Shown piece by piece: positions 23,350-56,457 of a stretch of 64,000 bases of DNA. Position numbers and translations under genes: made by a program. The DNA is from Candidatus Nomurabacteria bacterium (GTDB taxonomy: Bacteria > Patescibacteriota > Minisyncoccia > Phycocordibacterales > UBA918). The notes beneath the pieces were generated by a model. That model saw nothing but the letters and a program-made list of their open reading frames with translations, searched no databases and was not told the origin of the DNA. The DNA lies in assembly GCA_023898565.1 (NCBI GenBank), contig CP060228.1, positions 776,930 to 840,929 on the forward strand, given 5' to 3'. The first letter of the stretch is position 1. Each line of letters opens with the position of its first letter.

Positions 23350-23350
23350 A

Positions 23351-23382
23351 AAGAGTTGGGGATACCCCAACTCTTTCTTTTG
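23351..23382 (+). terminator. Rho-independent terminator after the FN3 gene
   Basis: A perfect hairpin AAAGAGTTGGGG-ATA-CCCCAACTCTTT is followed by CTTTTG. Confidence 0.7.
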
Positions 23383-23405
23383 CCGAAGAGTGCCATAATA
23401 GTGCT

Positions 23406-24728
23406 ATGGCAAAACCGCTCATTGTAGCTCGGGATCTTTCGATTATTTACAATCAGGGTAAATCGAATGAATTTAAAGCCCTGCAAGGGGTGAATACTGA
23501 CATCTACGAAGGTGAGTACATTATTTTGTTCGGTCCGTCAGGCTGTGGAAAATCTACACTCATGTACTCCATTCAAGGTTCTTTACCGCCAGGTGAGGGA
23601 ACGCTTCTTATCAAGGGTGATGACGTGTATGCGTATCCGCCTGCAGAGCGCGTGTATTTTCAGCGCCACGTGATGGGTATTATTTTTCAGCAATTCAACC
23701 TCATCATGTCACTATCAGTGCTTGATAACGTGGCTCTGCCAATGATTTTTTGCGATGCCGATAAAGCAACGAGAGAACGACGTGCCCAGGCTCTGCTTGA
23801 TCGTTTTGGGGTAGGACATGTTTCCCATAAGCTGCCCATGATGCTCTCTGGAGGACAGCAGCAGCGTGTGTCAGTAGCGCGGTCAATGGTTAACGACCCT
23901 AAAATTCTTTTGGCTGACGAGCCAACGGGAAACCTCGACTCGGTTTCTACGCAACAGGTGATGGATAAAATTGACGAAATTAACACGTTTGATCGCCGAA
24001 CGATTATCATGGTGTCACATAATGCGGCGCATCTTAGTTATGCGCACCGTGTGTACTATCTAAAAGATGGTTGGATTTTACGCGAGGTCGTCAATCCGCA
24101 ACGAAAGCAAATCAAGCCTGTAAATGAGGGAGAGACAATTGTAACTGAGCTTGAGCAGCTTGCCCGTTTGTATCCGTACGATTCGGTGGAGACATGGCGC
24201 GTTAAAAGTATGGTTAATTTTTTAACCCAACAATATACATTTGATCAGCTTGGCAAGCTTGAGCGTGCAATCAATTTCTTCATCCAAGGCAAAATTGACC
24301 GGGACGCTTTCATAAAGGCTCTCATGATGCCGCTTGAGCGAGGAGGAGTCGAGATTTCGGAAAAAGAAGCACGTCACATGGCTGGCGTGGTGGCAAAGAT
24401 GATGGATCAGGCAGCCGACGTGCGAAGGTTTAGAGCGAGAAAAGAAAATGACAACGTGTTCTTTAGTCAGCATAAGCTTGCAGAGCGTCTAAAGGAACAT
24501 TTATTGCACCAGTATCATATTAAGCTTACCAAAGAACAAGATACCAACATGACCGAGCTCATTGCTGACCGTGTGACGGGCGTAATCGAGGAACCTGCTA
24601 TGAACGAACGAATGTTGCAAGGTATTCGAGCTGGCGGACTCGGCCTGTCTGAGCGTGAAGCCGATGATCTTACTCGATACTTTGAAAAAGTCATCGCTCA
24701 AGGCGTTGATGTAGACTATAAGAAATAA
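23406..24728 (+). CDS. ABC transporter ATP-binding protein (MacB/LolD/FtsE-like) with a C-terminal extension of about 215 aa and unknown function
   Basis: It has Walker A 'GPSGCGKST', signature 'LSGGQQQRVSVARSM' and Walker B 'LLADEPTGNLD'. The start at 23406 is preferred because the upstream ATG at 23325 lies before the terminator hairpin. Confidence 0.85.
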   Translation: MAKPLIVARDLSIIYNQGKSNEFKALQGVNTDIYEGEYIILFGPSGCGKSTLMYSIQGSLPPGEGTLLIKGDDVYAYPPAERVYFQRHVMGIIFQQFNLIMSLSVLDNVALPMIFCDADKATRERRAQALLDRFGVGHVSHKLPMMLSGGQQQRVSVARSMVNDPKILLADEPTGNLDSVSTQQVMDKIDEINTFDRRTIIMVSHNAAHLSYAHRVYYLKDGWILREVVNPQRKQIKPVNEGETIVTELEQLARLYPYDSVETWRVKSMVNFLTQQYTFDQLGKLERAINFFIQGKIDRDAFIKALMMPLERGGVEISEKEARHMAGVVAKMMDQAADVRRFRARKENDNVFFSQHKLAERLKEHLLHQYHIKLTKEQDTNMTELIADRVTGVIEEPAMNERMLQGIRAGGLGLSEREADDLTRYFEKVIAQGVDVDYKK

Positions 24729-24730
24729 TT

Positions 24731-25945
24731 ATGCGTGTACAAGATCTTGCATCACTCTCCACTCGAATGTTTAAAACGAACCCAATGCGTACGTGGTTGA
24801 CGATTCTTGGTATGGGAGTAGGGACCGGAGCCGTGGTAGTTTTGGTGGGACTCGGTTTCGGTTTGCAGCAAATTATTTTGGAGCAAATTGTGTTCGGTGA
24901 AACGCTGCTTTCGCTCGGTGTTTCCTCTACCGGAGCACAAGGCCTACGTCTTACGCCAGAAACAGTAACGAGCTTTGAAAATATGACTGAAGTGCTTGAC
25001 GCTGCGCCGCTGGCACGTTTTCCGGCACTTATTACCTTTAAGGGTCTTACCGGCAACGTTTTCGTGCAAGGAGTCGAACCACCATATTTGCGCTACGCTG
25101 GTGTGACCGCACAAGCTGGCACGGTGTTTACTGATGAAGATGCTGGAGACGCTAATTCAATCATGATTTCACCAGCAACCCTTAAGTTGTTTGGTGTGGC
25201 TGATGACGAGATGGATAGTTTTATTGGCCAAAAAGTTTCTATTCGTCTTCTGGTGCCTGCAAATGATGGAACGGACAACGTAAACGAAATTCTGATTGAT
25301 AAAGAGTACACCGTGAGAGGCATCACCAAAGAGGAGGCTGTTTTGAACGTCATGATGATGTTGCCAGAATTGCGTAATCACGTCGGTATTGAAGAGTACG
25401 AGCGCATACAGGTGCGTGTGGATACGAATGAAAATCTGCCAATCGTAGAAGAACGCTTGATTGAAGAGGGGTATAGAGTGTCAGCTCTCTCCAAGACAGT
25501 GGAGCAGGCGTCAAAAATCTTCCAGGGTATCCAGGTGGTACTTGCCACGTTCGGAGGTATTGCCCTCGTTGTGTCTGCTATTGGTATGTTCAACACGATG
25601 ACCGTTACTTTGCTCGAGCGTACTAAAGAAATTGGAATCATGCGTACTATCGGTGCCTCGCCTAATGATGTGAAATATCTCTTCGTGTCGGAGTCTATTG
25701 TGGTAGGTTTTCTCGGCGGTCTTAGCGGTATTTTGATGGGGGTCGTTCTGGGGGTGACGGTGAATGTTTTCCTCAATATTGTGGCTGGACAATTTGGTGG
25801 CCAGTCGGTAAGGCTGTTCTCATTCCCACTGGACTTTTTGAGCTTTATTGCACTTTTTTCTGCGGCTGTAGGATACTTGACCGGTATTTTCCCAGCCAGC
25901 CGTGCATCAAAACTAAACCCGCTTGATGCAATCAGATATGAGTAG
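24731..25945 (+). CDS. ABC transporter permease of the FtsX/MacB family (N-terminal TM, large extracytoplasmic domain, C-terminal FtsX 3-TM bundle)
   Basis: The C-terminal motif is 'ERTKEIGIMRTIGASPNDVKYLF...'. It lies 2 nt downstream of the ATPase stop. Confidence 0.85.
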   Translation: MRVQDLASLSTRMFKTNPMRTWLTILGMGVGTGAVVVLVGLGFGLQQIILEQIVFGETLLSLGVSSTGAQGLRLTPETVTSFENMTEVLDAAPLARFPALITFKGLTGNVFVQGVEPPYLRYAGVTAQAGTVFTDEDAGDANSIMISPATLKLFGVADDEMDSFIGQKVSIRLLVPANDGTDNVNEILIDKEYTVRGITKEEAVLNVMMMLPELRNHVGIEEYERIQVRVDTNENLPIVEERLIEEGYRVSALSKTVEQASKIFQGIQVVLATFGGIALVVSAIGMFNTMTVTLLERTKEIGIMRTIGASPNDVKYLFVSESIVVGFLGGLSGILMGVVLGVTVNVFLNIVAGQFGGQSVRLFSFPLDFLSFIALFSAAVGYLTGIFPASRASKLNPLDAIRYE

Positions 25946-27964: not shown

Positions 27965-28005
27965 AGCAACAGCCACTGTTATCCAGCAGTGGCTGTTGCT
28001 TTTTA
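27965..28005 (+). terminator. Rho-independent terminator
   Basis: The 13-bp perfect stem GCAACAGCCACTG / CAGTGGCTGTTGC has loop TTATCCAG and is followed by TTTTT. Confidence 0.8.
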
Positions 28006-28037
28006 GGTACTTTTTATCGATAATATGTAGCATACAC

Positions 28038-28994
28038 ATGAATAGGGTTGTGCAAAATTTCGTGATGCTTGTTCTTTTTTTACCTGTGCTTTTTTTTAGC
28101 ATGGGTGCGCAGCATGTATTTGCTGGCTTTGGTATCACACCGCCGTATGTGCGAAATACAAGCCTAACTCGCAATTCAACGTACGAGCAGCAGATTCTTC
28201 TCGTTCGCAGTGACACGAATGTCGGGCAGATAGCTGAAATTTCTGTTGATGCTCCAGAAATTGAAAGTTGGATACAAATCGTTGAAGGTGAAGAAATTCA
28301 CATGCCCAAGGGTGCTCAAAAAGTGCCAATGACAGTGCGAGTTACAGTACCGTCTGACGCTGAATTTAAGGATTACGAGGGTGCCATTCGCATCCGTACA
28401 CTACCTGAAGATGGGAAGGTGTCACCGGGAGCTGTCAGTATTTCCCTCGGCGCACTGGTAGATATTAGTCTCTCTGTTATTGATAAACAAATCAAAGATT
28501 TTCGTGTTCGCAAAATTTCAGCGGCAGATTTAAACGAAGGACACAAAGTAGCCTGGCTCTATTTTCCGGGAAAAATTGATTTTGACATGATGATTGAGAA
28601 TACCGGTAACGTGGACATTGCACCGTCGAAAATTGAATTTAGAATTTTTGATAGAGCAGGTAAGGTGTTACTTGAAGAAACAAAAAACATCGGAAAGCTT
28701 GTAAAGGTTGCGCCGTATGGAACAGAGACAATTACCGCAGAGCTCCCGACTAGGCTTCCAGCCGGTAGTTATGTCGCTAGATACAGAATCTTCAATGGTG
28801 AGGACATTAAGCAGGAAGGAGACATTAGCTTAAATATCCTTGCGTACGGCACATTGCAGACAGCAGGTTTTGGTTTCATTGGTCTTTCTTTTGCTCACAA
28901 GATTTCAGTACTTCTTCCAATCTTCGCACTTGTTATTGCCGGTATTTACGCGTGGCAGTCACGACAAAAGGATAAAGTTCGTCGTCGCAGGTAA
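28038..28994 (+). CDS. CscA-like (DUF916/DUF3324-like) cell-surface protein with a signal peptide and a C-terminal TM anchor plus basic tail
   Basis: The signal peptide is followed by 'FGITPPYV...' and a 'DYEGAIRIRT' motif reminiscent of DUF916. The C-terminus is 'LLPIFALVIAGIYAWQSRQKDKVRRRR'. It is paralogous to the genes at 44196 and 45187. The family assignment is from memory. Confidence 0.55.
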   Translation: MNRVVQNFVMLVLFLPVLFFSMGAQHVFAGFGITPPYVRNTSLTRNSTYEQQILLVRSDTNVGQIAEISVDAPEIESWIQIVEGEEIHMPKGAQKVPMTVRVTVPSDAEFKDYEGAIRIRTLPEDGKVSPGAVSISLGALVDISLSVIDKQIKDFRVRKISAADLNEGHKVAWLYFPGKIDFDMMIENTGNVDIAPSKIEFRIFDRAGKVLLEETKNIGKLVKVAPYGTETITAELPTRLPAGSYVARYRIFNGEDIKQEGDISLNILAYGTLQTAGFGFIGLSFAHKISVLLPIFALVIAGIYAWQSRQKDKVRRRR

Positions 28995-28996
28995 GT

Positions 28997-30103
28997 ATGA
29001 AGTACCTCTTCTTTTTCTTCACCCTAAACATTCTTGTGGTGCCAACTTTTCTGCTGGCAGCAACACTCGATTACGCAACTACTACGCTAAGTGTAAGTAT
29101 TTGTGGAAACTCTATTGTGGATTCGGGCGAACAGTGCGATGTGCCTGGAGAGACTGGAGTGTACAGTCAAACAATTGCAGGTAGGCAGTGTACAGCTTCC
29201 TGCAATTTTGGTCCGTACTGTGGTGACGGTATTCTCCAGACCGTACACGGAGAAGAGTGTGATGATGGTAATAATGATAACGGTGATTTTTGCTCCGCGC
29301 TTTGTAAAATTGAGCCAGCAGGTTCTGGCGGCGGCGGTTCGTCTGGCGGCGGTTCGTCTGGCGGCGGCGGAAGCTCAAAAAGTGTTGGTGATACTTTAAT
29401 CAGCATCATCGGAAGAGCGTATCCCTCTCGTACAATAAACTTTCTTCTTGATACAGAGACCGTAGGCACGGTTCGTTCAGGCAGTGACGGACGTTTTGAA
29501 TTTACAACCGAGGCAGATCCAGGCACAGCTACGTTAGGCATCTGGGCTAATGACGATAGTGGTAACCGCTCAATCACTCTTAACAACACGTTTGATGTAA
29601 CGCAAGGCGCAATTACAAACATCAATGGTGTCATTCTGCCGCCAACCATTTCTGTGCCCAGCCAGAATGTTGATCCGGGTGCTGCGGTAACAGTGTCGGG
29701 ACAAAGTGTGCCAGGGTCAACCGTAGAACTGCATGTTGACAATAGTTCACTTATTGAAAAAGCAACGGCGGGTAGCGACGGTAAGTGGAGTATTCTTTTT
29801 GACACCTCTAAGATTTCAATAGCCGAACACACGCTGCGTGCTCGTACTATTACTGATACACCCCCACTTACTACCAATAGTAGCTTTAGTGCCTCACTGC
29901 AGCTGTTTGTTGGTGTTGAAGGTCGCGCGACCACGCCATCTGATCTTAATCGTGATGGGTTCATAAACTTGATTGACTTTTCTATTCTGATTTTCTGGTG
30001 GCAGACTGACGGCGGTGACTCAAATCCACCAGCAGATATCAATGGTAATGGGCGAGTGAGTCTGGAAGACTTTTCTATTTTACTTTTCAACTGGAGTGGC
30101 TAA
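28997..30103 (+). CDS. Secreted protein with two Myxococcus-type cysteine-rich repeats, a Gly/Ser linker, Ig-like domains and a C-terminal dockerin-like domain
   Basis: The cysteine-rich repeats read 'CGDGILQTVHGEECDDGNNDNGDFCSALC'. The linker is GSGGGGSSGGGSSGGGGSS. The dockerin-like Ca-binding repeats are 'DLNRDGFINLIDFSIL' and 'DINGNGRVSLEDFSILLFNW'. Confidence 0.7.
   Translation: MKYLFFFFTLNILVVPTFLLAATLDYATTTLSVSICGNSIVDSGEQCDVPGETGVYSQTIAGRQCTASCNFGPYCGDGILQTVHGEECDDGNNDNGDFCSALCKIEPAGSGGGGSSGGGSSGGGGSSKSVGDTLISIIGRAYPSRTINFLLDTETVGTVRSGSDGRFEFTTEADPGTATLGIWANDDSGNRSITLNNTFDVTQGAITNINGVILPPTISVPSQNVDPGAAVTVSGQSVPGSTVELHVDNSSLIEKATAGSDGKWSILFDTSKISIAEHTLRARTITDTPPLTTNSSFSASLQLFVGVEGRATTPSDLNRDGFINLIDFSILIFWWQTDGGDSNPPADINGNGRVSLEDFSILLFNWSG
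29321..29377 (+). repeat. Tandem nucleotide repeat (ggcggcggttcgtct x2 plus variants) encoding the Gly/Ser linker
   Basis: It is directly visible as 'ggcggcggcggttcgtctggcggcggttcgtctggcggcggcgg'. Confidence 0.8.
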
Positions 30104-30430
30104 CACCTGCCTTGCGGCAGGTTTTGCCGTTTTTATAAACTCATGAATGAATGTGTGAAATTATGCATTTCAGAAATAAAATTTTGTGAATAAACTAATT
30201 TTTAAAAAAACTCTTGCGGTAAAATTAAGTTGTACTTGCAAAGGAGGTAATCAATTAGCATTACTGCTTGTATCACATACGAGGGCACTTCAGCCGAGTG
30301 TTACTTTGTAGGTATGCTTACAGTGTATTTTGTTGTAGTCGGAGTGGAGACCGTACTACACGCATGGGTTTTTGCCCATCTGTTTTTACACCACAAAAAC
30401 AGGCTGTGAGTCTAATACAACGTAGAGTAT
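30104..30430 (+). promoter_or_regulatory. AT-rich upstream region of 327 nt (putative promoter plus long 5' leader) with an orphan strong Shine-Dalgarno sequence (AAGGAGGT at 30241-30248) that is not followed by a start codon
   Basis: It is very AT-rich (tttttaaaaaaa, taaaat). The SD-like element lies about 180 nt upstream of the ATG at 30431. The -10-like TAGAGT sits 3 nt before the ATG. Confidence 0.35.
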
Positions 30431-31588
30431 ATGCACAGAGCGTCCAACGCGTTCACTGTGCTCCAAGCTACCGCAGCTATCGTAGCTACAGCAATCATTT
30501 TTTGGTCGCTTGGCTTACCAACATTCCGCTTTGCGGAAGCTGCAAATGTCACGACGTTTAGCAACACCCTTTCTAGCTCTGCTCCAGCAGCAGCCGCTGA
30601 CCATACCATTGCGTTCACTACTCCAACCGGAGTGGCCAACGGAGAAACAATCACGGTTGATTTCTCAGATGGACCGTTTGTGGTTGGTTCAGTCGACTTC
30701 ACTGATATTGATGTAGCCACATCATCTGGTGAGTTCTCACTGGCAGCTGATTGTTCAGGCTCAGAAATGGCTAGCGCTGCTTTTTCAGGCACAACTCTCA
30801 CCATCACTATGTGTGCTGGTGACGGCAGCTTGATCGCAGCAAATGGAACCACAACGATTGAGATTGGTACTAATGCTACAAACCAAACTCTTGGTGATCA
30901 GCAACTAACCAATCCAGCAGCTGGTTCATACGAAATCAACCTTACTGCAGGTTCTGTTGATACAGGCGCAACACGTGTTGCAATTGTTGAAACAGTTACT
31001 GTTACCGCTTCAGTTGACACCCAGTTTACATTTACAGTAACTGGCGTTGCTGGAGGTCAAACAGTTAACGGTGAAACCACTGGCGGTACAACGACAGCAA
31101 CTACCATTCCATTTGGTCAGCTGGAAATTGATACCGCGAGTACTGCAGCACAGGATTTGGTTGTTGTGACCAACGCACGTAATGGTTTTGTTGTAACGGT
31201 AGAGGCAGATCAACAGCTTACATCGTCTAATGGTGCTGATATCGACAGCTTCCGCAACGGTAACGGAGATACTACTCCAACCGCCTGGGAAGCACCGTCA
31301 CAGACGCTTGGCGATGAAGATACATACGGTCACTGGGGTATTACATCTGATGACGACACATTGACATCAGGTCTCACCAATCCGTTCAATGTTGGTTCTG
31401 GCGGCGATCGATTCGCAGCCGTACTGACTACGCCAACAGAAGTATTTCGTCACACTGGGCCATCAAATGGTACAACACAGGGTGAAGGAACCACTCGAGT
31501 TGGTTACAAGGTCGAGGTTTCCTCACTACAGGAAGCTGCCGACGACTACACTGCTACACTGACATATGTAGCAACGCCGGTTTTCTAG
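30431..31588 (+). CDS. Secreted surface protein (385 aa), T/G/S-rich, with a C-terminal WxL-like motif 'DDYTATLTYVATPVF'. It has its own promoter region and a strong terminator, so it may be an abundant surface component
   Basis: The signal peptide reads 'AIVATAIIFWSLGLPTFRFAEA'. The C-terminus is colinear with the end of the 2,063-aa protein ('GDYTADLQYIVIPVF'). Confidence 0.65.
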   Translation: MHRASNAFTVLQATAAIVATAIIFWSLGLPTFRFAEAANVTTFSNTLSSSAPAAAADHTIAFTTPTGVANGETITVDFSDGPFVVGSVDFTDIDVATSSGEFSLAADCSGSEMASAAFSGTTLTITMCAGDGSLIAANGTTTIEIGTNATNQTLGDQQLTNPAAGSYEINLTAGSVDTGATRVAIVETVTVTASVDTQFTFTVTGVAGGQTVNGETTGGTTTATTIPFGQLEIDTASTAAQDLVVVTNARNGFVVTVEADQQLTSSNGADIDSFRNGNGDTTPTAWEAPSQTLGDEDTYGHWGITSDDDTLTSGLTNPFNVGSGGDRFAAVLTTPTEVFRHTGPSNGTTQGEGTTRVGYKVEVSSLQEAADDYTATLTYVATPVF

Positions 31589-31620
31589 TAAAATTGGCTT
31601 CAAGCTTGGAGTTAACAAAC

Positions 31621-31657
31621 AAAAAACCCTATCTCCCACCACGAGAAGGGTTTTTTG
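31621..31657 (+). terminator. Rho-independent (potentially bidirectional) terminator
   Basis: AAAAAACCCT pairs perfectly with AGGGTTTTTT around a 16-nt loop. An A-tract lies upstream and a T-tract downstream. Confidence 0.8.
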
Positions 31658-31707
31658 CTTGTGTACAGAGCGGATTATTTGTAAATGAGGTTGCTATACT
31701 GTGTGTA

Positions 31708-32778
31708 ATGAAACGAGGTACGTATTTGTTTTTTCTCGCCAGTTTTTTCTGGATGTTGTCATCAACTAACGTTTACGCGGCTTCACTATATATTGACCCG
31801 GGCACTCCAACATTACATAGCGGCGACTCGGCGACACTCGCGGTGAGACTTGATGTAGATGAAATGGCAGAGGAGTGCGTTAATGCCGTGAGTGCAGTGA
31901 TTAGCTACCCAACCAATATTGAACCAGTAGACGTTTCGATTGGCGAATCAATTTTTTCGATGTGGGTAGAACAGCCTACTATCAATCGAACGGAGCGAAC
32001 AATAACTTTCGCTGGCGGCATTCCAAATGGATATTGCGGCCGAGTAATTGGAGACCCGCGACTCAGTAATATTCTCATGAAGTTAGTTGTAATGGTGCCG
32101 GGTTTTTCAATTGGTGGTGCTGCTGATAGTAATATCGCTGAAATTTACTTTACAGACGAGAGTCTTGCGTATCTCAATGATGGACAAGGTACTGCTGTGC
32201 CGGTTGAAAGCTATCCATCAAGAATTTCAATTATCAGAAAGCCAGGTGCAGAATTACAGAACGCGTGGCAAAAAGAAGTTGATGCAGACAGGGTTTTGCC
32301 TGAAGAATTTAGCATCTCACTACAGCGTGACGAAAAGGCTTTTTCTGGAAAGTACTATATCGTCTTCAACACCTCAGACAAGCAAACTGGTATTGATCAT
32401 TATGAGGTTATTGAGGAGCCTATGAGTCAATTTGGTGCATTTCAATGGGGAAGAGCAGATGCGCCATGGATTACAGCGCGGAGTCCGTACGTACTAAAAG
32501 ACCAAAGTCTAAACAGTATTGTTAGGGTTAAGGCGGTGGACAAAGCAGGTAATGAGCGTATTGCAAATCTTCTGCCGGACGAAAGTATGCGTACGATGTC
32601 ATACTCACAAATTATAACGATTGCCGTTGTAGGAGCTTCACTCGTGTTAATGTTGCTGCTTCTTGTTGGTGGCCTGCTCTATGTTAAACGTAAGCGTCAA
32701 AAGCGAGTGAGTGAGAATGAGTTAGCTGCTACTCCAGATCAAAATGATGAGCGTAACAAGGATGAGTATGATGTATAA
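31708..32778 (+). CDS. Membrane-anchored protein with a cohesin-like domain (signal peptide, cohesin-like beta-sandwich, C-terminal TM and charged tail)
   Basis: The cohesin-like block is 'SLYIDPGTPTLHSGDSATLAVRLDVDE...VSAVISYP...'. The C-terminal TM is 'IAVVGASLVLMLLLLVGGLLYVKRKRQKR'. Confidence 0.55.
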   Translation: MKRGTYLFFLASFFWMLSSTNVYAASLYIDPGTPTLHSGDSATLAVRLDVDEMAEECVNAVSAVISYPTNIEPVDVSIGESIFSMWVEQPTINRTERTITFAGGIPNGYCGRVIGDPRLSNILMKLVVMVPGFSIGGAADSNIAEIYFTDESLAYLNDGQGTAVPVESYPSRISIIRKPGAELQNAWQKEVDADRVLPEEFSISLQRDEKAFSGKYYIVFNTSDKQTGIDHYEVIEEPMSQFGAFQWGRADAPWITARSPYVLKDQSLNSIVRVKAVDKAGNERIANLLPDESMRTMSYSQIITIAVVGASLVLMLLLLVGGLLYVKRKRQKRVSENELAATPDQNDERNKDEYDV

Positions 32779-34537
32779 AACAAATCTTATAGTCAGTTTT
32801 GCAAAAAAAGCTGCTCTTCTTCTTGGGCTTGTTTTGGCATATTTCGTATGCTTCAGTGCAACGTCCTATGCTGCAACATTGAGCCTCTCGCCAAACACCG
32901 GTGTATACCCAGTAAACAGCACTTTTTCAGTAAGTGTGAGTGTTGCGCCTGATGGAAAATCAATTAATGCCGCTGAAGGGACGCTATCGTTCAATCCGCG
33001 CGAGCTCTCAGTCGTCTCTGTGAACCGTAGCAGCTCGATTTTTAATCTATGGGTGACGGAGCCAACGTTTTCAAACAGTGCAGGAACAATATCCTTTAGC
33101 GGTGGTTCACCGGCTGGTTACTCCGGTCGAAGTGGAACCATTATGACCATTACATTTCGAGCGGTAACTGCTGGCTCACCCCGGGTAAGTTTTAAGAACG
33201 GTTCGGTGCTGGCCAACGACGGTAAAGGTACAAACATCCTAACCGCAATGAATGGTGGCAGTTATACAATTCAAGCAGCCGTTTCAACACCAGTTCCGGA
33301 AGTAATTGAATATGTGGCGCCTGCCAATACACCAGCAGCTCCGAAGGTGACTTCTAGTTCTCATTCGGATAGCACAGGCTGGTATACAAACACCAAAGCA
33401 GAGCTTGCTTGGCTCGTGCCGGAGGGAGTGACTGCGGTACGGACACTGCTCGACGCAAACCCGAGTTCAATCCCAACTAAAGTGTACGAAGAAGCCGTCT
33501 CACACATAACCGTAGATGACTTAGATGAAGGTGTGCAGTACTTCCATGTGCAGTTTAAGAACAGTGAAGGCTGGGGTAAGGTCGCACATTACCGCTTAGC
33601 AGTTGACACCGAAAAGCCTACTCGCATTGATATTTCGTTGGCGGCAGAGGCTGATTTGGCAAATCCTGTTCAGGTACTTAAAATAGACGTAAATGATGAA
33701 ACATCAGGAATTGAGAAATTTAAGATTAAGCTTGACGCAGACGACCCATTTGAAGTAACTGATTCAGTTGCCTCTGGCAGTGTGCGTTTGCCATCGTTGG
33801 AGCCGGGGTACCACACAGCAATTGTGGAGGCCTTTGATCAGGCTGGAAATAGCATCGTGGGCACGTTCTCATTTACTATCGCAGCGTTTGATCGCCCAAT
33901 TTTTACTGAATATCCAAGTGAAGTTAGCGAACAAGTTATTCCTGTTATAAAGGGTCAGACCAGACCGAATGCAGTAGTGGAGGTTTTTGTTACGAAGCTG
34001 GGGAGTGAGCCGCTATCCTATGAGGTGACTGCAAACGACAGAGGGGAGTTTACCTTTATTCCAGAAGGAAGATTTAGTCTTGGTGTGTATGAGCTTACGG
34101 CACGCGCCACAGACACTTTTGGGGCACAAAGTGAACTCTCAGATGTGGTGCGAATCGCTGTTCAACAGCCGGGCTTTGTTCGGATTGGTTCATTACTGGT
34201 AAGTGCTTTGTCAGTTTTGATACCGCTACTTGTCTTAATTGCCGTGCTGTTGCTTGGTGTGTGGTACTCGTTTATCTACGCACGCCGTTTCCGAAAAGCT
34301 GTTCGCGTAGAATCCATCGAAGCATTGCAAATCTTGAGGCGCGAGTTTGCTGACCTGCAAACTACCTTGATGCAGCAGTCACGTGTTATGGCCGAGTCGC
34401 GTCGAACAAAAAAACTAACAATCGCTGAAGAGTCAATGGTTGAGCTTTTTGCCGCAGCACTTCGCAATTCACAACAGAAAGTAGAGAGGGAAATTGTTGA
34501 TATCGCGGACCTTACAAATAAGTCAGATAAGAAATAA
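32768..34537 (+). CDS. Membrane-anchored protein with an N-terminal cohesin-like domain, Ig/FN3-like domains, a C-terminal TM and a cytoplasmic tail of about 100 aa
   Basis: The cohesin-like block is 'TLSLSPNTGVYPVNSTFSVSVSVAPDGKSINAAEGTLSFNPRELSVVSV'. The TM is 'LIPLLVLIAVLLLGVWY'. Its start overlaps the previous stop (ATGTATAA). Confidence 0.55.
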   Translation: MMYKTNLIVSFAKKAALLLGLVLAYFVCFSATSYAATLSLSPNTGVYPVNSTFSVSVSVAPDGKSINAAEGTLSFNPRELSVVSVNRSSSIFNLWVTEPTFSNSAGTISFSGGSPAGYSGRSGTIMTITFRAVTAGSPRVSFKNGSVLANDGKGTNILTAMNGGSYTIQAAVSTPVPEVIEYVAPANTPAAPKVTSSSHSDSTGWYTNTKAELAWLVPEGVTAVRTLLDANPSSIPTKVYEEAVSHITVDDLDEGVQYFHVQFKNSEGWGKVAHYRLAVDTEKPTRIDISLAAEADLANPVQVLKIDVNDETSGIEKFKIKLDADDPFEVTDSVASGSVRLPSLEPGYHTAIVEAFDQAGNSIVGTFSFTIAAFDRPIFTEYPSEVSEQVIPVIKGQTRPNAVVEVFVTKLGSEPLSYEVTANDRGEFTFIPEGRFSLGVYELTARATDTFGAQSELSDVVRIAVQQPGFVRIGSLLVSALSVLIPLLVLIAVLLLGVWYSFIYARRFRKAVRVESIEALQILRREFADLQTTLMQQSRVMAESRRTKKLTIAEESMVELFAAALRNSQQKVEREIVDIADLTNKSDKK

Positions 34538-35226
34538 TGAATATGAAAACAGCAATCAAAAATTGGTTTACCGTAAAGACTGTAGGTGCATGTTTGCTTG
34601 GAGTCTTGGTAATTTACTTTGCAACCACCGCGATCGTCGACGTTCGCCTTAGTGCTTATGAGCAGACGTCGCGGTTACAAATTGCAGATCAACAGACTGT
34701 TTTGCTTGCTATTGCAGAAGCTACTGGTAGAAACGGGGTAGACGTTGCAGGTGAGTCAATTATTCATGACTGTGCTGTAAACGAAAGGACGGAGTTTGAC
34801 AGTTTGCTCAGCCGCTTAAATGTTGGATTATCTCAAACTGAACTGATAACTTTAGAACGTCTATTCGGTCGTTGTGGTTCATTTTTTTCTGACCGAAAGT
34901 CTTTGATGTCCTCACGACTTACTCGAGAAATTGAAATATACGAAACGTACGTTACACAACTAAGTATTCTTTTAGGGGACAATCTAAGTGGAGCCTTTTT
35001 AGTTCAAAAATGGAAGGCGCTTGCGGCTGAGGAGGAGCGACAAAGCGAACTTTTTGGGAGACTGGTTGGCGCACAAGACAAAATAATCGCAACGTTGCTT
35101 TCTGGTAAGAGTGCAAATTCAGATGAAATCCAGGAAATTTTACAAGAAGCAAAAGAAATTCAAGAAACACTCCTGGTAGCAAATAAGCAAGCCTCAACCC
35201 TCCGTGCTGAGCTGGTGCCGCTCTAA
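34537..35226 (+). CDS. N-terminally TM-anchored hypothetical protein (229 aa), predicted helical/coiled
   Basis: The ATG overlaps the previous TAA (TAATG). The TM is 'VGACLLGVLVIYFATTAIV'. No recognisable domain was found. Confidence 0.5.
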   Translation: MNMKTAIKNWFTVKTVGACLLGVLVIYFATTAIVDVRLSAYEQTSRLQIADQQTVLLAIAEATGRNGVDVAGESIIHDCAVNERTEFDSLLSRLNVGLSQTELITLERLFGRCGSFFSDRKSLMSSRLTREIEIYETYVTQLSILLGDNLSGAFLVQKWKALAAEEERQSELFGRLVGAQDKIIATLLSGKSANSDEIQEILQEAKEIQETLLVANKQASTLRAELVPL

Positions 35227-35234
35227 ACTGGAGT

Positions 35235-35978
35235 ATGAACGCATTTATTCAGAAGTATCTTCTGCAGAGAAAAAGAAAAAGTACGAGAACGGTACGCTTC
35301 TTGTTCTCTGCAGTTTTCACCGCTGCGATGTTGCTTGGTGCAGCAGCAATCACGAGTACTTCTGATGTTTCGTATATTCGGCTCGCTACTTCTGCTGCCA
35401 CGGTTGAGTCAGGCCAACGTTTTTCAATTGATGTATACGCCTATGCTCACGTGCCTGTAAACGCCGTTGATATAACTCTTCACTTTGATCCAGATGCTGT
35501 CACCGTCCTTTCGGTTGACCGAGGTCAATCTGTGTTAACTATTTGGACTGAAGAGCCGGTGATTAAAAACGGCACAGTATCATTAAGCGGCGGTACGTTT
35601 AGGCGCGGGTTTGTTAAAGAGCACAAGATTGCAACTCTCGACATGGTGGCTAAAGAGACTGGTCAGAGCACGTTTAGCGTCTCAGACGTCATGCTTTTGG
35701 CGGGTGACGGCGCCGGTAGCCCTGTTTCAACAACTGAGACGGATAGCTCGTCAGTAAGCTTGTATGTGTATGACGAGAATACTTCTCCAGAAAACATAGG
35801 CGTAGACGTTAAAATTAAAGTGGTTTCCGACATTGATGGTGATGGAAAGGTTACATTGACTGACATAAGCGCATTTATGGCCGCTTGGCATAATAAAAAC
35901 ACACTTTATGACTTCAATAACGATGGCAAAATGTCCTTCCGAGACTTTTCGATCATACTGGCAAATTTCTTTTTCTAG
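35235..35978 (+). CDS. Protein combining a cohesin-like domain and a C-terminal dockerin-like domain
   Basis: The cohesin-like block is 'RFSIDVYAYAHVPVNAVDITLHFDPDAVTVLSV'. The dockerin repeats are 'DIDGDGKVTLTDISAFMAAW' and 'DFNNDGKMSFRDFSIILANF'. Confidence 0.6.
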   Translation: MNAFIQKYLLQRKRKSTRTVRFLFSAVFTAAMLLGAAAITSTSDVSYIRLATSAATVESGQRFSIDVYAYAHVPVNAVDITLHFDPDAVTVLSVDRGQSVLTIWTEEPVIKNGTVSLSGGTFRRGFVKEHKIATLDMVAKETGQSTFSVSDVMLLAGDGAGSPVSTTETDSSSVSLYVYDENTSPENIGVDVKIKVVSDIDGDGKVTLTDISAFMAAWHNKNTLYDFNNDGKMSFRDFSIILANFFF

Positions 35979-37991: not shown

Positions 37992-40900
37992 ATGTTGTGG
38001 AGGAAACGCTTTTGGAGTCGGTGTATTGTTCCTGTGGCTGGATTGCTGCTGGCCTTAGTGTGGGTAGAAGCAATTCGCTTCGCTGTTCCACTTGACCGGC
38101 TGATTTCGGTATTTACCCTCGTCCAGGCGGCAGAGGTTACTATCGACAGTGCCGTAAGCACTACCCCCACTGAGCATCATATTTTGGGATCACAGACAGT
38201 TTTTGTGAGTGATCAGGTTGGCTATAAGTTTTATACTAACAGCAATGGTACTTGTGTGTACAACAAAACAAGCAATGGTGGCACGAGCTGGGGCACAGAA
38301 GTTACCTTCGATAGCCAGACCGACTGTTGGGGAGTAGTGGTTTGGTACGATCAGTGGACTGCCGGCGACACTGGGAATTACATCCATATCATCAGCGCAG
38401 ATAGCAGCAGCGACGTTGTTTGGTACAACCGTCTAGACACCACATCTGATACGCTGTTGCTCGGCTCAACTCCAGTAAATGTCTCATCAAACTCTGGTCA
38501 AACCGGCACACTTGCAACGGCTGCTAACAACCCAAGTATCACAAAGGCTACTAATGGCGTACTGTACATTGCCATTGCAGACAACACTGATAGTTATGTC
38601 GTTGAATGTTCTGCGAGTTGTGGCTCAGCAACCAGTTGGACAGAAACTGGCACAAACCCCATGGACCTGCAGCCAGACAAGTCACTCATCTTGCCGCTTG
38701 CAGACGGAGATATAATTCTCATTCAACGAGATCGGTCCGCAGATGATATGCGCAGCAAAATTTGGGATGATAGCGCCGGTACCTGGTCGGGCACTTGGAC
38801 GATAATCGATGCGAACGCTATTGAAAACAGCACCTACGATCCTTCTTTTGCCGCTATGGCAGATCCTGATTCGGGAGATATTTTTTTAGTGTATATAGAC
38901 AACGGGACAACGGGCGCGATTGGTGGAGGCAATGACAACATCAGAACGGCCAAATATTCAGGGGGTTCGTGGACCAATACTGCCAACGTGGTTACCAATA
39001 GCGCAATGGGTCTGACAAAACTCTCAATGGCGATGGATGGAAATAATTCTGAGATTTATGTTGCCTTTTCTGCGCGAGTCACTCCAGGCACGGCAAACAC
39101 AGCAAATATCTATTGGGCAACATCGACCGCTGCCATGAGTTCATGGGGGTCTGTGCAAGGCCCAGTCAACAGCACACCAGACGATATGTACGGAGTTGAT
39201 CTCAACAACTACAACAAGGAGCGCATTTATGTTTCATGGTATCAGCCAGCAATCGATGACATCTTAGGTGACACAATCGCGAACATTTCACCGATTACCG
39301 TTGTTAGTTCATTTGGTACTCAGAGTAGTGAAGTCAGGGCAAGTAGTACGGATACGTATATTGGTGGAGGCTTTGCAATCGTTGAAAATTCAGCTAGTCG
39401 AAATGTTACCGACATCATTATTTCGGAGAACGGCAGTGTTGATGCTGCAAATGCTCTAGACAACATTAAGCTCTACTACGACCTCGACACCAGCGCGCCG
39501 TACGATTGTGCGAGTGAATCATACAGCGGTACTGAAAGTCAGTTTGGTAGTACGGACACCAATGGCTTTTCCGGAGCAGATGGCGTTTCTGCTTTTACTG
39601 GCTCGGTCGGTATTTCTCCGACGACGGCAATGTGTGTGTATGTTGTCATGGACGTGCTTAAAGTAGCGGTAGACGGCAGTACACTGGATGTTGAGATTTC
39701 CAATCCAGCCACTGACGTGCTTGTGAGTGGAAGCGTGACGGCCGTGCCTCCGACTGCTCAGCAAATCGGCGGCACTACAAATATTGTTGACTCAGACTTA
39801 ACACAAACTCATTATCATTGGCGTAATGACGATAATATTGAACTGCTGGCAACTTCTCGAACGGGTGGTGCAGAGGACATTCCGCTGACAGCGCTGCAAA
39901 AAGAAACACCAGTACGTCTGCGTTTTGGGGTCTCCAACGAAGGGTCAACCACGACACTTCCAACAACATTGCGACTCGAATATGCAACCAATCCCTCAGT
40001 CTGCTCAGCTGCAACGGGGTGGACAGATATTGATGTGGTGGATGATGCTTGGAACTTGTATGATTCGACATACGTGGTAAACGGTACGGATACTACAGAT
40101 ATAAGCGTCGCCTCGGGAGGCGTAGACAATGAAAATAGTGTTTTCCTAACTCCAAACGGCGGACAGCTCGACACTTCCTCTGAAACAGGTTCGCTTGCTT
40201 TCTTGCCAACAAATTGGACGGAGGTTGAATATGCAATTGTTGCCTCAAGCTCTGCACAAGAGGGTGATGGCTACTGTTTTAGACTAACCAATGCAGGTGA
40301 ACCATTACCGCAATACAATACCTATCCATCGGCCGTCATTGCGGCAGATGTGCGCGTGCGTGCTACAAGTACCCAGATAGCTGCAGCCGACATACCAGCG
40401 GATAACGTGTACTTGGGTGGCGCATTTACTATTACGGAAAACAGCTCGGCGAGAACGGTGTCTGGAATCACAATCACTGAAAATGGCACTGTTGATGCTT
40501 CTGCTGGTCTGGCGAATATTCGTTTGTATTATGATCTCGACACCAGCGCGCCGTACGATTGTGCGAGTGAATCATACAGCGGTACTGAATTTCAGTATGG
40601 GGCAACCTCAAGCGCATTTAGTGCGGCAAATGGCACGTCCACTTTTAGTGATGCTGTTGGTATTACCACCACGCAAACGATGTGTGTGTACGTTGTGGCG
40701 GATGTTACAGAAACCGCTCAAAATGGAGAGAATATAAACATTTTACTTGCTTCACCCGCAACCGACATTGTGGTGTCAGGCGGGGGCACGGTCTCTCCAT
40801 CAACGCCGCTTGATATAAATGGCTCAACAACATTGGCGGGAGCAATCGTCACACAAACTGGATATCATTGGCGCTATGATGACGGTGACGAAACCTCCAG

Positions 40901-44195: not shown

Positions 44196-45212
44196 ATGAT
44201 TAAGACTAAGATGAAAAGAGGGTTCACTCAATTTCTAAATGCCATTACGATTGCGTTGGTCATATTTCCTTTAGCATCACAAGCATCTGATGTGACTGTT
44301 CGTCCATTTCTTATAGACCGAACGCTTTTACCTCGAGACACAGCAACGGAAACAATCACTATTAAAAGCGATTACGATATTCGAAAAGCTGTTCTTTTTG
44401 CAACGGTCAATGAGATTACTCTAGACTCTGAGGGGGAAATTAAAGAGTTTGTTTCTCCAGTAATGACCGATCGAACCAACACTATTACTAGTTGGATCGA
44501 GGTGTCCCGTGGTCGAATTGAAGTCCCGCCGGGTGAGACTGTTGAAGTTCCACTGACCGTACGAGTACATCCACAAGCTCAGCCAGGTGAGTACACGGCA
44601 TTTATTGGGTTGGTTGAAGCGGCAAATCGAGACAAGGCGGAAGCCATTGCTCTGGCTGGTGAAGCGAAGGGTGTATTACTTAAAGTGACAGTGAGTGATC
44701 AGCGTAAGGAAACAATGAGCATTACCAGCTTTATGATTAATCGATTCGTGACTGGTGAAGCTCGGAAGAAAATTGAGATTAGTGTTGAAAATAAGGGTGA
44801 TATCACCTCTGCACCAGCCGGAGAAATTATATTTTACGATTCTCGGGGGAGAGAAGTTGATTCTGTTACGGTAAAGGGAGAAGCTATCAATCCTGGTGAA
44901 ATGGGCACGCTTACTAGTGTTGTTCCTCTTTCTGAAAAATTGGGTCGCTTCAAGGCGAATGTGACCTTGCATTATGGTGACACACAGCAAGCCTCATTGT
45001 TTGATACCACATACTTTTATCTTGTGCCGATGTATCCACTGTTAATGCTGTTTGGCATTGTACTACTCATTTCAATTGCGATTGCTTTGATGTTTAGACG
45101 CGCATTCTTTAGTCACGAATCACCTGATGATTACCATGAAGTAACCATGTATGTTCGTGACGGACACGAACCTAACCCGCAAGATCATGACATCGACCTT
45201 AAACAAAACTAG
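44196..45212 (+). CDS. CscA-like (DUF916/DUF3324-like) cell-surface protein with a C-terminal TM anchor
   Basis: The signal peptide is followed by 'DVTVRPFLIDRT...'. The motif 'QPGEYTAFIGLVEA' is present. The C-terminal TM is 'LLMLFGIVLLISIAIALMFRR'. Confidence 0.55.
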   Translation: MIKTKMKRGFTQFLNAITIALVIFPLASQASDVTVRPFLIDRTLLPRDTATETITIKSDYDIRKAVLFATVNEITLDSEGEIKEFVSPVMTDRTNTITSWIEVSRGRIEVPPGETVEVPLTVRVHPQAQPGEYTAFIGLVEAANRDKAEAIALAGEAKGVLLKVTVSDQRKETMSITSFMINRFVTGEARKKIEISVENKGDITSAPAGEIIFYDSRGREVDSVTVKGEAINPGEMGTLTSVVPLSEKLGRFKANVTLHYGDTQQASLFDTTYFYLVPMYPLLMLFGIVLLISIAIALMFRRAFFSHESPDDYHEVTMYVRDGHEPNPQDHDIDLKQN

Positions 45213-56413: not shown

Positions 56414-56457
56414 CATGCAACGCACGAGCCTGACGCGAGCTCGTGTATACTTTACAT

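What the first reader, a model, noticed from the sequence alone, without database searches (positions are those of the whole stretch)
28997..35978. Cohesin-dockerin gene set embedded in the surface locus
Two proteins carry C-terminal dockerin-type double EF-hand repeats (28997-30103 and 35235-35978). Three carry cohesin-like beta-sandwich domains (31708-32778, 32768-34537 and 35235-35978). Two of the cohesin proteins are membrane-anchored by C-terminal TM helices with cytoplasmic tails. This has the logic of a cellulosome-like scaffold: anchored cohesins displaying dockerin-tagged cargo. No glycoside hydrolases are present. The dockerin cargo is a Cys-rich-repeat protein and a cohesin-dockerin adaptor, which suggests assembly of a non-cellulolytic surface structure.
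Basis: partly seen in the sequence, partly recalled or inferred. Interest (0 to 1): 0.75.

Follow-up and report, generated by a model that had tools for sequence, protein, structure and literature searches.

The report
Membrane-anchored cohesin–dockerin set in CPR pilus locus
Four neighbouring genes of an uncultured ultra-small (CPR/Paceibacteria) bacterium really do encode the 'plug and socket' modules known from cellulosomes, but with no enzymes attached; the set is kept almost unchanged across the whole lineage inside an operon that looks like a recently discovered CPR pilus system, so it probably fastens a surface fibre or adhesin to the cell membrane.

Summary

No glycoside hydrolase and no multi-cohesin scaffoldin is present, so this is not a cellulosome. 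It is a fixed set of 3 cohesins and 2 dockerins. Next to g6, g5 is present in 58/59 related Paceibacteria loci and g8 in 57/58.

The surrounding 20-kb operon looks like a variant of the Pam pilus system (bioRxiv 2026). g4 and the C-terminus of the 2063-aa g10 are remote homologs of the Pam pilin C-domain. The Pam paper mentions neither cohesin nor dockerin.

In distant relatives the Ig-stalk and dockerin stay constant while the head changes: Cys-rich repeats, MG2, or a pilin-like domain.

Most likely function: calcium-dependent cohesin–dockerin contacts tether g3 and g8 to the membrane anchors g5 and g6. Binding itself is inferred, not shown. Who binds whom is unresolved.

The parts
28997..30103 (+). 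g3: secreted protein. Signal peptide (res 1-21), two Cys-rich acidic repeats (res 36-103; 29102-29305), Gly/Ser linker, two Ig-like domains (about 29384-29896), C-terminal dockerin.
   Evidence: Pfam DUF4215 39.8 bits, Big_6 40.1 bits, Dockerin_1 29.4 bits. NCBIfam myxo_disulf_rpt 47.7 bits. Orthologs are 55-78% identical.
29930..30100 (+). g3 dockerin (res 312-368): two F-hand segments, DLNRDGFINLID-FSILIFWW and DINGNGRVSLED-FSILLFNW.
   Evidence: It is the most conserved module of the whole cluster (mean p-distance 0.15 against 0.30-0.60 for the others).
31708..32778 (+). g5: type-I membrane protein. Signal peptide, cohesin domain (res 25-176; 31780-32235), second beta domain (32305-32577), TM helix (32611-32685), 30-aa cytoplasmic tail.
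32771..34537 (+). g6: type-I membrane protein. Signal peptide, cohesin (32846-33280), middle beta domains including Big_13 (33935-34141), TM helix (about 34181-34276), conserved about 86-aa helical cytoplasmic tail (34277-34534). The ORF could also start at 32744.
   Evidence: Pfam Cohesin 29.4 bits above cut-off, Big_13 44.6 bits. 1414 homologs at about 60% identity over the full length. The tail is conserved even in a distant homolog.
34537..35226 (+). g7: small protein with an N-terminal TM helix and a helical domain. Translationally coupled between g6 and g8. Function unknown.
   Evidence: Its start codon overlaps the g6 stop by 1 nt; an 8-nt gap separates it from g8. Present in 53/58 loci, but it is the fastest-evolving member.
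35235..35978 (+). g8: cohesin-dockerin protein. Conserved N-terminal hydrophobic segment (35298-35354; signal anchor or signal peptide), cohesin (35364-35780), dockerin (35826-35975).
   Evidence: Pfam Dockerin_1 24.5 bits (above cut-off), Cohesin 22.2 bits (below cut-off). AF2 model plus Foldseek: 49 of top 50 hits are cohesins, TM 0.82. 723 homologs at 60-70% identity.
30431..31588 (+). Context, g4: Pam-like pilin. Signal peptide, N-terminal beta domain, conserved linker VTVTASV, C-terminal pilin domain (res 222-385).
   Evidence: NCBIfam NF058581 CPR_Pam_pilin_C over the whole model, E 2.5e-3. 33 of 41 orthologs hit it, best 1e-7, and it is the only family hit. All scores are below the curated cut-off.
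37992..44183 (+). Context, g10: 2063-aa surface protein ending in the same Pam-like pilin C-domain (43434-44183). Candidate tip adhesin.
   Evidence: hhalign to the g4 family 98.8%, E 8e-17. NF058581 E 6e-6; the L001 ortholog gives 6e-8.
27996..28994 (+). Context, g2 (start probably 28038): signal peptide, two beta-sandwich domains, C-terminal TM helix. Candidate membrane-anchored pilus chaperone, by architecture only. g11 (44196-45212) has the same layout.
   Evidence: Only generic E-set/Ig hits. The layout matches PamC/PamD as described in bioRxiv 10.64898/2026.03.03.709456.
23325..25945 (+). Context: ABC ATPase (23325-24728) and MacB_PCD/FtsX permease (24731-25945), heading the conserved operon.
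   Evidence: Pfam. 75-90% identical across loci.

Best explanation
The region encodes a non-cellulosomal, enzyme-free cohesin-dockerin system that belongs to a lineage-wide cell-surface operon of Paceibacteria (CPR).

LAYOUT. g5 and g6 are type-I membrane proteins that hold one cohesin each at their outer tip. g8 carries one cohesin and one dockerin and probably also stays in the membrane through its N-terminal segment. g3 is secreted. It has a Cys-rich adhesin-like head, an Ig-like stalk and a C-terminal dockerin.

PROPOSED MECHANISM. After Sec export, the calcium-loaded dockerins of g3 and g8 plug into the cohesins. The result is a defined membrane-anchored complex that holds the g3 head at the cell surface. 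The most parsimonious pairing is g3 dockerin with g6 cohesin. The conserved helical cytoplasmic tail of g6 couples or oligomerises the anchor on the inside.

CONTEXT. The set sits in an operon with a Pam-type pilin (g4), a giant protein with the same pilin C-domain (g10), chaperone-like membrane proteins (g2, g11) and a MacB/FtsX ABC transporter. The complex therefore most likely serves as the base, socket or accessory adhesin of that pilus-like surface structure.

SHOWN: module identity, topology, conservation and synteny.
INFERRED: the binding itself, the partner assignment, and the link to the fibre.
For: Module identity.

Ca-loop ligands are invariant over 39 and 57 orthologs.

The g3 dockerin is the most conserved module of the entire cluster: p-distance 0.15 against 0.30-0.60. 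That is what one expects of a binding interface.

The module set is fixed. 40 loci show exactly g3(doc)-g5(coh)-g6(coh)-g8(coh+doc), and no extra modules lie within 10 kb on either side. Co-location next to g6: g5 58/59, g8 57/58, g3 37/40.

The g5/g6 reading frames overlap, g6/g7 overlap by 1 nt, and only 8 nt separate g7 from g8.

Distant lineages keep a dockerin protein next to g5/g6-like cohesin anchors while everything else changes:
- L065: MG2 + Dockerin_1 (39 bits), then a g5-like gene, then a g6-like gene.
- L068: g3-like, g5-like, g6-like and g8-like genes.
- L069: a dockerin protein with a pilin-like head close to a g6-like cohesin.

Dockerins 55-77% identical to that of g3 sit at the C-terminus of many non-enzymatic Ig-type proteins.

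Pam context: and the paper read.

Established knowledge: cohesin-dockerin pairs are Ca-dependent, high-affinity protein-protein connectors, and non-cellulosomal ones sit mostly on non-catalytic proteins (Peer et al. 2009, as cited in PMC13487519).
Against: No interaction was tested or modelled, because the structure-prediction quota allowed monomers only.

The mirror-tree partial correlations between the dockerins and the g5/g6 cohesins are all weak: at most 0.16 in absolute value, against 0.23 for the g8 dockerin with its own cohesin.

The g8 dockerin part of the model has low confidence (pLDDT 62-71). Its best sequence matches among solved structures are EF-hand calcium-binding proteins (E about 1e-4), not dockerins (E 0.2).

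g5 has no sequence-profile match to Pfam Cohesin, and g8 falls below the cut-off.

Three cohesins for two dockerins leaves one socket unexplained.

The published Pam system has no cohesin or dockerin component. All Pam-domain hits here are below NCBIfam's curated cut-off (17.9-32.9 bits against 55).
Confidence: 0.6

Rival explanations
1. The modules are structural look-alikes that do not pair with each other. On this reading, the 'dockerins' are calcium-stabilised C-terminal caps or EF-hand-type calcium sensors. The cohesin-fold domains bind something else, such as host-cell glycans, peptidoglycan or pilin subunits. Co-location would only reflect membership of one surface operon.
Confidence: 0.2
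2. The set forms a self-assembling lattice or chain instead of displaying cargo. The g8 dockerin would bind the cohesin of the next g8 (or of g5/g6) head-to-tail, building a membrane-proximal polymer or S-layer-like sheet. g3 would be a minor decoration.
Against: g8 is missing from the distant variant L065, which still has a dockerin protein plus g5- and g6-like genes. The conserved N-terminal hydrophobic segment suggests that each g8 is itself membrane-tethered, which limits polymer growth. r = 0.23 is within the noise and concerns two parts of the same protein.
Confidence: 0.1
3. It is a true (mini-)cellulosome for polysaccharide degradation. The dockerin-tagged enzymes would be encoded elsewhere in the genome.
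For: One cohesin is unaccounted for by the local dockerins. 2449 database proteins carry related dockerins.
Against: The window holds no glycoside hydrolase, CBM or multi-cohesin scaffoldin. None was found in the 10-kb flanks of 66 related loci. Ten proteins with the closest dockerins carry only Ig-like domains. From my own knowledge: the host lineage consists of reduced-genome CPR bacteria.
Confidence: 0.03

Closest known systems
Cellulosomal single-cohesin anchoring scaffoldins (C. thermocellum OlpC/OlpA; R. flavefaciens ScaE)
   Different: Those proteins are attached to the wall by SLH domains or sortase. g5 and g6 use a C-terminal transmembrane helix with a cytoplasmic tail. Their partners are enzymes or enzyme-loaded scaffoldins. 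Here no enzyme is involved.
ScaC-type adaptor scaffoldin of Ruminococcus flavefaciens (one cohesin + one dockerin)
   Same: g8 has the same two-module layout and similar size. The ScaC cohesin (5lxv) is the top Foldseek hit of g5 and is in the top 5 for g8.
   Different: g8 has a conserved N-terminal hydrophobic segment that may keep it in the membrane. Sequence identity is only 12-18%. Its function in a fixed complex is inferred, not tested.
Non-cellulosomal cohesin/dockerin modules (Peer et al. 2009; Archaeoglobus fulgidus cohesin 2xdh; Clostridium perfringens toxin/glycosidase cohesins 2vo8, 2jh2)
   Same: Cohesin and dockerin modules sit on mostly non-catalytic proteins outside cellulose degraders (PMC13487519). 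2xdh and 2vo8 are among the very best structural matches.
   Different: Here the modules form a strictly conserved four-gene set with TM anchoring. It sits inside a pilus-like operon of CPR bacteria. No paper in the searched library links cohesin or dockerin to Parcubacteria/Paceibacteria.
Pam pilus system of CPR bacteria (Ca. Mycosynbacter amalyticus; bioRxiv 10.64898/2026.03.03.709456)
   Same: g4 and g10 carry a remote homolog of the Pam pilin C-terminal donor-strand-acceptor domain. g2 and g11 have the layout described for PamC/PamD: a secreted beta-domain pair plus a C-terminal TM helix. All components have signal peptides. The system is CPR-specific.
   Different: The published system is reported mainly in Saccharimonadia and Microgenomatia. 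Its anchor is the RbmA-like PamR, and the paper mentions no cohesin, dockerin or ABC/FtsX component. Scores here are below the family cut-off. Donor-strand assembly and the chaperone fold were not tested.

Membership tests
Dockerin (Pfam PF00404 Dockerin_1) | Profile score at or above the curated gathering cut-off (22.9 bits) | tested here: met
   g3 29.4 bits; g8 24.5 bits. The distant L065 dockerin protein scores 39.3 bits.
Dockerin (Pfam PF00404 Dockerin_1) | Two tandem segments of about 22 residues, each a 12-residue Ca loop (D/N at positions 1, 3, 5; D at 12) followed by a helix, with no entering helix (F-hand) | tested here: met
   Loop positions are invariant in 39 and 57 orthologs. The g8 model has only helices 208-220 and 235-246.
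Dockerin (Pfam PF00404 Dockerin_1) | Binds calcium and a cohesin partner | not testable with these tools
   Needs biochemistry or multimer prediction. The mirror-tree analysis was uninformative.
Cohesin (Pfam PF00963) | Profile score at or above the gathering cut-off (24.1 bits), in g6 | tested here: met
   29.4 bits, residues 51-166.
Cohesin (Pfam PF00963) | Profile score at or above the gathering cut-off, in g8 and g5 | tested here: not met
   g8 scores 22.2 bits; g5 has no hit at E<=0.1. Both are clear paralogs of the g6 cohesin.
Cohesin (Pfam PF00963) | Nine-strand beta-sandwich whose closest solved structures are cohesins | tested here: met
Cellulosome | [quoted passage not shown] | tested here: not met
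   Each of g5, g6 and g8 has one cohesin. No other cohesin lies in the window or in the 10-kb flanks of 66 loci.
Cellulosome | At least one dockerin fused to a glycoside hydrolase | tested here: not met
   No GH catalytic domain in any window ORF. The closest dockerin proteins elsewhere carry only Ig-like domains. The whole genome was not available.
Adaptor scaffoldin (ScaC type) | A single cohesin followed by a C-terminal dockerin in one secreted protein | tested here: met
   g8 has this architecture. The adaptor function itself was not tested.
Pam pilus system (NCBIfam NF058581 CPR_Pam_pilin_C; bioRxiv 10.64898/2026.03.03.709456), considered for the surrounding operon | Pilin C-terminal domain scoring at or above the curated cut-off (55 bits) | tested here: not met
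   g4 17.9 bits; g10 C-terminus 26.4; L001 ortholog 32.9. However, 33 of 41 g4 orthologs hit this model and no other, over its full length. That supports remote homology, not curated membership.
Pam pilus system (NCBIfam NF058581 CPR_Pam_pilin_C; bioRxiv 10.64898/2026.03.03.709456), considered for the surrounding operon | Membrane-anchored PapD/FimC-like chaperones (PamC/PamD) | tested here: inconclusive
   g2 and g11 have a signal peptide, two beta-sandwich regions and a C-terminal TM helix. Only generic E-set hits were found.
Pam pilus system (NCBIfam NF058581 CPR_Pam_pilin_C; bioRxiv 10.64898/2026.03.03.709456), considered for the surrounding operon | Donor-strand-exchange polymerisation, and a PamR-like terminator/anchor | not testable with these tools
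   Needs multimer models or cryo-EM. No RbmA-like TM protein was recognised.
WxL / Csc surface-complex clusters of Firmicutes | WxL domain proteins plus DUF916/WxLIP proteins | tested here: not met
   No WxL or WxLIP hit in 41 g4 and 36 g2 orthologs. Only weak WxLIP_PGBD hits were seen: g12 (E about 1e-3) and a 366-aa protein in L069.

The most novel reading that the evidence does not exclude
The cohesin-dockerin set is how Paceibacteria fasten a Pam-type donor-strand pilus to a cell that has no outer membrane, no usher and no sortase. It would work as a two-piece functional replacement of the PamR terminator/anchor.

A dockerin-tagged subunit (g3, or in other lineages a protein with a pilin-like head) would end or decorate the fibre. 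It would snap into transmembrane cohesin sockets (g5/g6, bridged by g8). The conserved cytoplasmic tail of g6 would link the fibre to the cell interior or to the adjacent MacB/FtsX ABC machine.

The changeable heads on a constant stalk-plus-dockerin would make this a plug-in adhesin system for host attachment in CPR bacteria.
Probability: 0.25. Interest if true: 0.8.

Novelty: new variant of a known kind. Interest (0 to 1): 0.62.

Why it matters
CPR/Patescibacteria may make up a large share of bacterial diversity and mostly live attached to other cells. How they build and anchor their surface appendages is largely unknown.

This finding supplies a concrete, testable set of four small proteins. 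The set is conserved at 50-70% identity across a whole class, which is unusual for surface proteins. It uses the best-understood protein 'plug and socket' in microbiology in a new setting: transmembrane-anchored, enzyme-free, and embedded in an operon related to the Pam pilus described in 2026.

If the pairing is confirmed, three things follow:
- It would extend the Pam-type system to Paceibacteria.
- It would add an anchoring principle not described for any pilus.
- It would offer orthogonal, naturally membrane-anchored cohesin-dockerin pairs for surface-display engineering.

Tried and rejected
(1) Single-sequence and profile searches of g5, g6 and g8 against PDB sequences found no cohesin. 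The fold had to be shown by structure prediction.

(2) An EF-hand reading of the g8 C-terminus was considered, because Entamoeba CaBPs are its best PDB sequence hits. It was rejected as the main reading: Dockerin_1 passes its cut-off, and only two helices follow the two loops.

(3) A WxL/Csc-type surface cluster was suspected from the C-terminal motif ...DYTATLTYVATPVF and from a weak WxLIP_PGBD hit. Pfam and NCBIfam scans of 41 g4 and 36 g2 orthologs gave no support. The motif instead belongs to the Pam pilin C-domain.

(4) A mirror-tree (distance-matrix correlation with background removed) on 22 complete loci was used to assign dockerin-cohesin partners. It gave no usable signal.

(5) A search for extra cohesin or dockerin modules found none. 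It covered the 7250-aa giant protein, the rest of the window and the 10-kb flanks of 66 loci.

(6) Literature searches for cohesin/dockerin together with Parcubacteria, Patescibacteria or CPR found no description of this system. The only near item is an essential dockerin-domain protein in a Saccharibacterium (PMC10633639). Its relation to this set could not be checked.

(7) Promoter and terminator scans gave counts no higher than chance. Only the hairpin right after the g3 stop codon is noted.

(8) Peer et al. 2009 (PMC3035643) could not be read.

Full report
WHAT IS THERE. All genes in the region lie on the + strand and are tightly packed. I name them as follows:
- g1: 26058-27941
- g2: 27996-28994
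- g3: 28997-30103
- g4: 30431-31588
- g5: 31708-32778
- g6: 32744 or 32771 to 34537
- g7: 34537-35226
- g8: 35235-35978
- g9: 36096-37949
- g10: 37992-44183
- g11: 44196-45212

Upstream lie a 7250-aa ORF, an fn3 protein, an ABC ATPase and a MacB_PCD/FtsX permease. Every one of g1-g11 has an N-terminal signal or anchor segment.

CHECKING THE OBSERVATION: DOCKERINS. Pfam Dockerin_1 is above its curated cut-off in g3 (29.4 bits against 22.9) and in g8 (24.5 bits). Both modules consist of two 12-residue calcium loops, each followed by a helix. In 39 g3 orthologs and 57 g8 orthologs, loop positions 1, 3, 5 and 12 are D, N/D, D/N, D almost without exception.

CHECKING THE OBSERVATION: COHESINS. Pfam Cohesin is above its cut-off in g6 (29.4 bits against 24.1), just below it in g8 (22.2 bits) and absent in g5. 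The three domains are paralogs. BLASTP gives 9e-12, 1e-8 and 5e-6. HMMs built from each ortholog family detect the other two at 1e-8 to 1e-18.

CHECKING THE OBSERVATION: ANCHORS AND CENSUS. g5 and g6 have cleavable-looking signal peptides and one strong C-terminal hydrophobic helix. Charged tails of 30 and about 86 residues follow. A six-frame census of the whole window with the family HMMs finds exactly two dockerins and three cohesins. No glycoside hydrolase domain is found in any ORF of at least 150 aa.

WHERE IT COMES FROM AND HOW CONSERVED IT IS. g5, g6 and g8 have 1460, 1414 and 723 database relatives respectively. Most are 55-70% identical over the full length. They are named Kaiserbacteria, Nomurabacteria, Pacebacteria or Parcubacteria where a name exists.

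A scan of one genome per species returned 66 loci, all from Patescibacteria-type MAGs. The best is Ca. Elulimicrobium. In every locus whose contig reaches far enough, the full order is kept: fn3, ABC, FtsX, g1 to g11. Next to g6, the other genes are present as follows:
- g5: 58/59 loci
- g8: 57/58 loci
- g3: 37/40 loci
- g4: 42/46 loci

The module set is fixed. 40 loci show exactly g3(doc), g5(coh), g6(coh), g8(coh+doc), with no further cohesin or dockerin within 10 kb on either side. The remaining loci are truncated versions of the same pattern. The g3 dockerin is the most conserved piece of the entire cluster, with mean pairwise distance 0.15 against 0.30-0.60 for the others.

WHAT VARIES IS INFORMATIVE. 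Three distant relatives keep the association while the rest changes.
- L065 has a 982-aa protein with an MG2 domain and a strong Dockerin_1 (39 bits). It is directly followed by a g5-like and a g6-like cohesin protein. No pilin-like genes lie nearby.
- L068 has g3-like, g5-like and a short g6-like gene in a row, with a g8-like gene on the other strand.
- L069 was reached through a search with the g3 dockerin alone. It has, in order: a g4-like pilin; a g11/g12-like membrane protein; a 140-aa protein; a 653-aa protein; HSP20; and a g6-like cohesin with TM helix and conserved tail. The head of the 653-aa protein resembles the N-terminal domain of g4 (E 1.8e-13). Its Ig stalk and dockerin are those of g3.

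Ten other proteins whose C-terminal dockerins are 56-77% identical to that of g3 contain only Ig-type domains and no enzymes. The stalk and dockerin are therefore constant, and the head is exchangeable. This is the cellulosome's modular logic, applied to binding or structural heads instead of enzymes.

THE SURROUNDING LOCUS. NCBIfam model NF058581 ('Pam pilus system pilin subunit', C-domain) matches g4 over the whole model (E 2.5e-3). It matches 33 of 41 g4 orthologs (best 1e-7) and is the only family hit. It also matches the C-terminus of the 2063-aa g10 (6e-6), its ortholog in L001 (6e-8) and the L069 pilin (1e-4). The g4 and g10 C-domains align at 98.8% hhalign probability. All scores are below the curated cut-off of 55 bits. 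This is remote homology, not curated membership.

The Pam system was described in 2026 from cryo-EM of Ca. Mycosynbacter amalyticus filaments (bioRxiv 10.64898/2026.03.03.709456). Its pilins have a nine-strand N-domain, a donated linker strand and a truncated Ig-like C-domain. Its PapD/FimC-like chaperones carry a C-terminal TM helix. The RbmA-like PamR is proposed to end the fibre and anchor it in the membrane.

g2 and g11 (signal peptide, two beta-sandwich regions, C-terminal TM helix) fit the chaperone layout. No fold test was possible, and family scans gave only generic E-set hits. The paper does not mention cohesin, dockerin, Paceibacteria or ABC/FtsX components. It reports the system mainly in Saccharimonadia and Microgenomatia.

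HOW IT MOST LIKELY WORKS.
Shown: four Sec-exported proteins carry 3 cohesins and 2 dockerins. Two are type-I membrane proteins with the cohesin distal to the membrane. The calcium ligands are conserved. The genes are translationally coupled and co-inherited.

Inferred: calcium-loaded dockerins of g3 and g8 plug into the cohesins and give a defined membrane-anchored complex. g6 is the only member present in every variant, and its cohesin is the most conserved of the three (p-distance 0.33). The g3 dockerin is the most conserved module overall. Pairing of the g3 dockerin with the g6 cohesin is therefore the most parsimonious guess. g8 has a conserved N-terminal hydrophobic segment (TVRFMF...) and may bridge to g5.

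The operon context suggests that the complex is the base, socket or accessory adhesin of a Pam-like fibre built from g4 and tipped by g10. A more daring version holds that g3 plus g5/g6 replaces PamR as a two-piece terminator/anchor. That version rests only on architecture and on the L069 fusion. I give it about 25%.

RIVALS.
(a) The modules do not pair. The dockerins are calcium caps or sensors, and the cohesin folds bind something else. Supporting this, the g8 C-terminus matches EF-hand proteins better than dockerins in PDB sequence searches, and covariation is silent. Against it stand the Pfam cut-offs, the two-helix layout, the extreme conservation of the g3 dockerin and the persistent adjacency in rearranged loci.
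(b) g8 polymerises head-to-tail into a lattice. This is possible, but g8 is dispensable in L065.
(c) It is a real cellulosome with enzymes encoded elsewhere. This is very unlikely given.

COMPARISON WITH WHAT IS KNOWN. As modules, these are members of the dockerin and cohesin superfamilies. The system is not a cellulosome: it has no multi-cohesin scaffoldin and no dockerin-fused hydrolase, the two features used to define one in PMC13487519. It belongs with the non-cellulosomal cohesin/dockerin proteins catalogued by Peer et al. 2009 (cited there; I could not read the paper).

Several things look new:
- transmembrane anchoring with a conserved cytoplasmic tail;
- the fixed four-gene set;
- its class-wide conservation in CPR bacteria;
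- its place inside a Pam-like pilus operon.

I found no paper describing any of this. Note, however, that database pipelines already tag some of these proteins with Cohesin or Dockerin Pfam domains.

LIMITS. No interaction was modelled or measured. g6 was not modelled. The dockerin part of the g8 model has low confidence. Only the window and 10-kb flanks were examined, not a whole genome. The taxonomic labels of several MAGs are doubtful.

Noticed in passing
window 30431-31588 (g4) and 43434-44183 (C-terminus of g10, 37992-44183): Both carry a remote homolog of the Pam pilus pilin C-domain (NCBIfam NF058581, below cut-off) and align to each other at 98.8% hhalign probability. The locus therefore looks like a Paceibacteria variant of the CPR Pam pilus operon described in 2026, which was reported mainly for Saccharimonadia and Microgenomatia.
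   Followed up: partly
window 23325-25945: An ABC ATPase (467 aa, with a long C-terminal extension) and a MacB_PCD/FtsX permease head the operon. They are 75-90% identical across all related loci, far more conserved than the surface proteins they precede. Their role (assembly motor? extraction of anchored subunits?) is unknown. No such component is mentioned for the published Pam system.
   Followed up: no
window 21-21773: A 7250-aa ORF with two DUF2341 domains and a LamG/pentraxin-like domain. No enzyme domain and no cohesin or dockerin. It lies directly upstream of the fn3 protein and the ABC genes.
   Followed up: partly
window 34277-34534 (g6 tail): The roughly 86-residue cytoplasmic tail of g6 is helical, charged and conserved, even in the 36%-identical homolog of locus L069. 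This suggests an intracellular partner or coiled-coil oligomerisation of the anchor.
   Followed up: partly
window 27996-28994 (g2), 44196-45212 (g11), 45151-46881 (g12): Three proteins have a signal peptide, beta-sandwich domains and C-terminal TM helices. g12 also has a weak WxLIP_PGBD hit and a LytR_C domain. g2 and g11 match the layout of the membrane-anchored Pam chaperones, but no fold evidence was obtained.
   Followed up: partly
window 36096-37949 (g9): A 617-aa protein with a very acidic low-complexity N-terminal half and TolB-like beta-propeller repeats (weak NCBIfam hits only). The propeller half is conserved in the operon, while the acidic half is variable.
   Followed up: no
window 30114-30182: A G+C-rich hairpin followed by a T-run (30114-30130) sits 11 nt after the g3 stop codon. 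A promoter-like site (30155-30182) lies before g4. This hints that the pilin gene g4 is transcribed separately. Overall site counts in the region are no higher than chance.
   Followed up: no
window 56443-58767: A 774-aa secreted-type protein with Big_13 and bacterial TSP3 (calcium-binding) repeats lies between a response regulator (55607-56413) and a histidine kinase (58764-60104).
   Followed up: no
loci L004, L005, L022, L034, L036, L042, L061 and others: Contigs carrying this Paceibacteria operon at 50-66% identity are titled 'uncultured Candidatus Saccharibacteria', 'Acidimicrobiales' or 'Azotimanducaceae'. These are probably mislabelled or contaminated bins.
   Followed up: no
proteins P0362, P0375, P0402, P0426: The search with the g3 dockerin also finds proteins of 800-2800 aa with 10-16 tandem dockerin-like stretches. 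This is a different architecture from the single C-terminal dockerin seen here.
   Followed up: no
proteins P0262, P0342, P0360: JGI annotates some g8 homologs as 'archaellum component FlaF'. This is probably a weak beta-sandwich similarity and was not examined.
   Followed up: no
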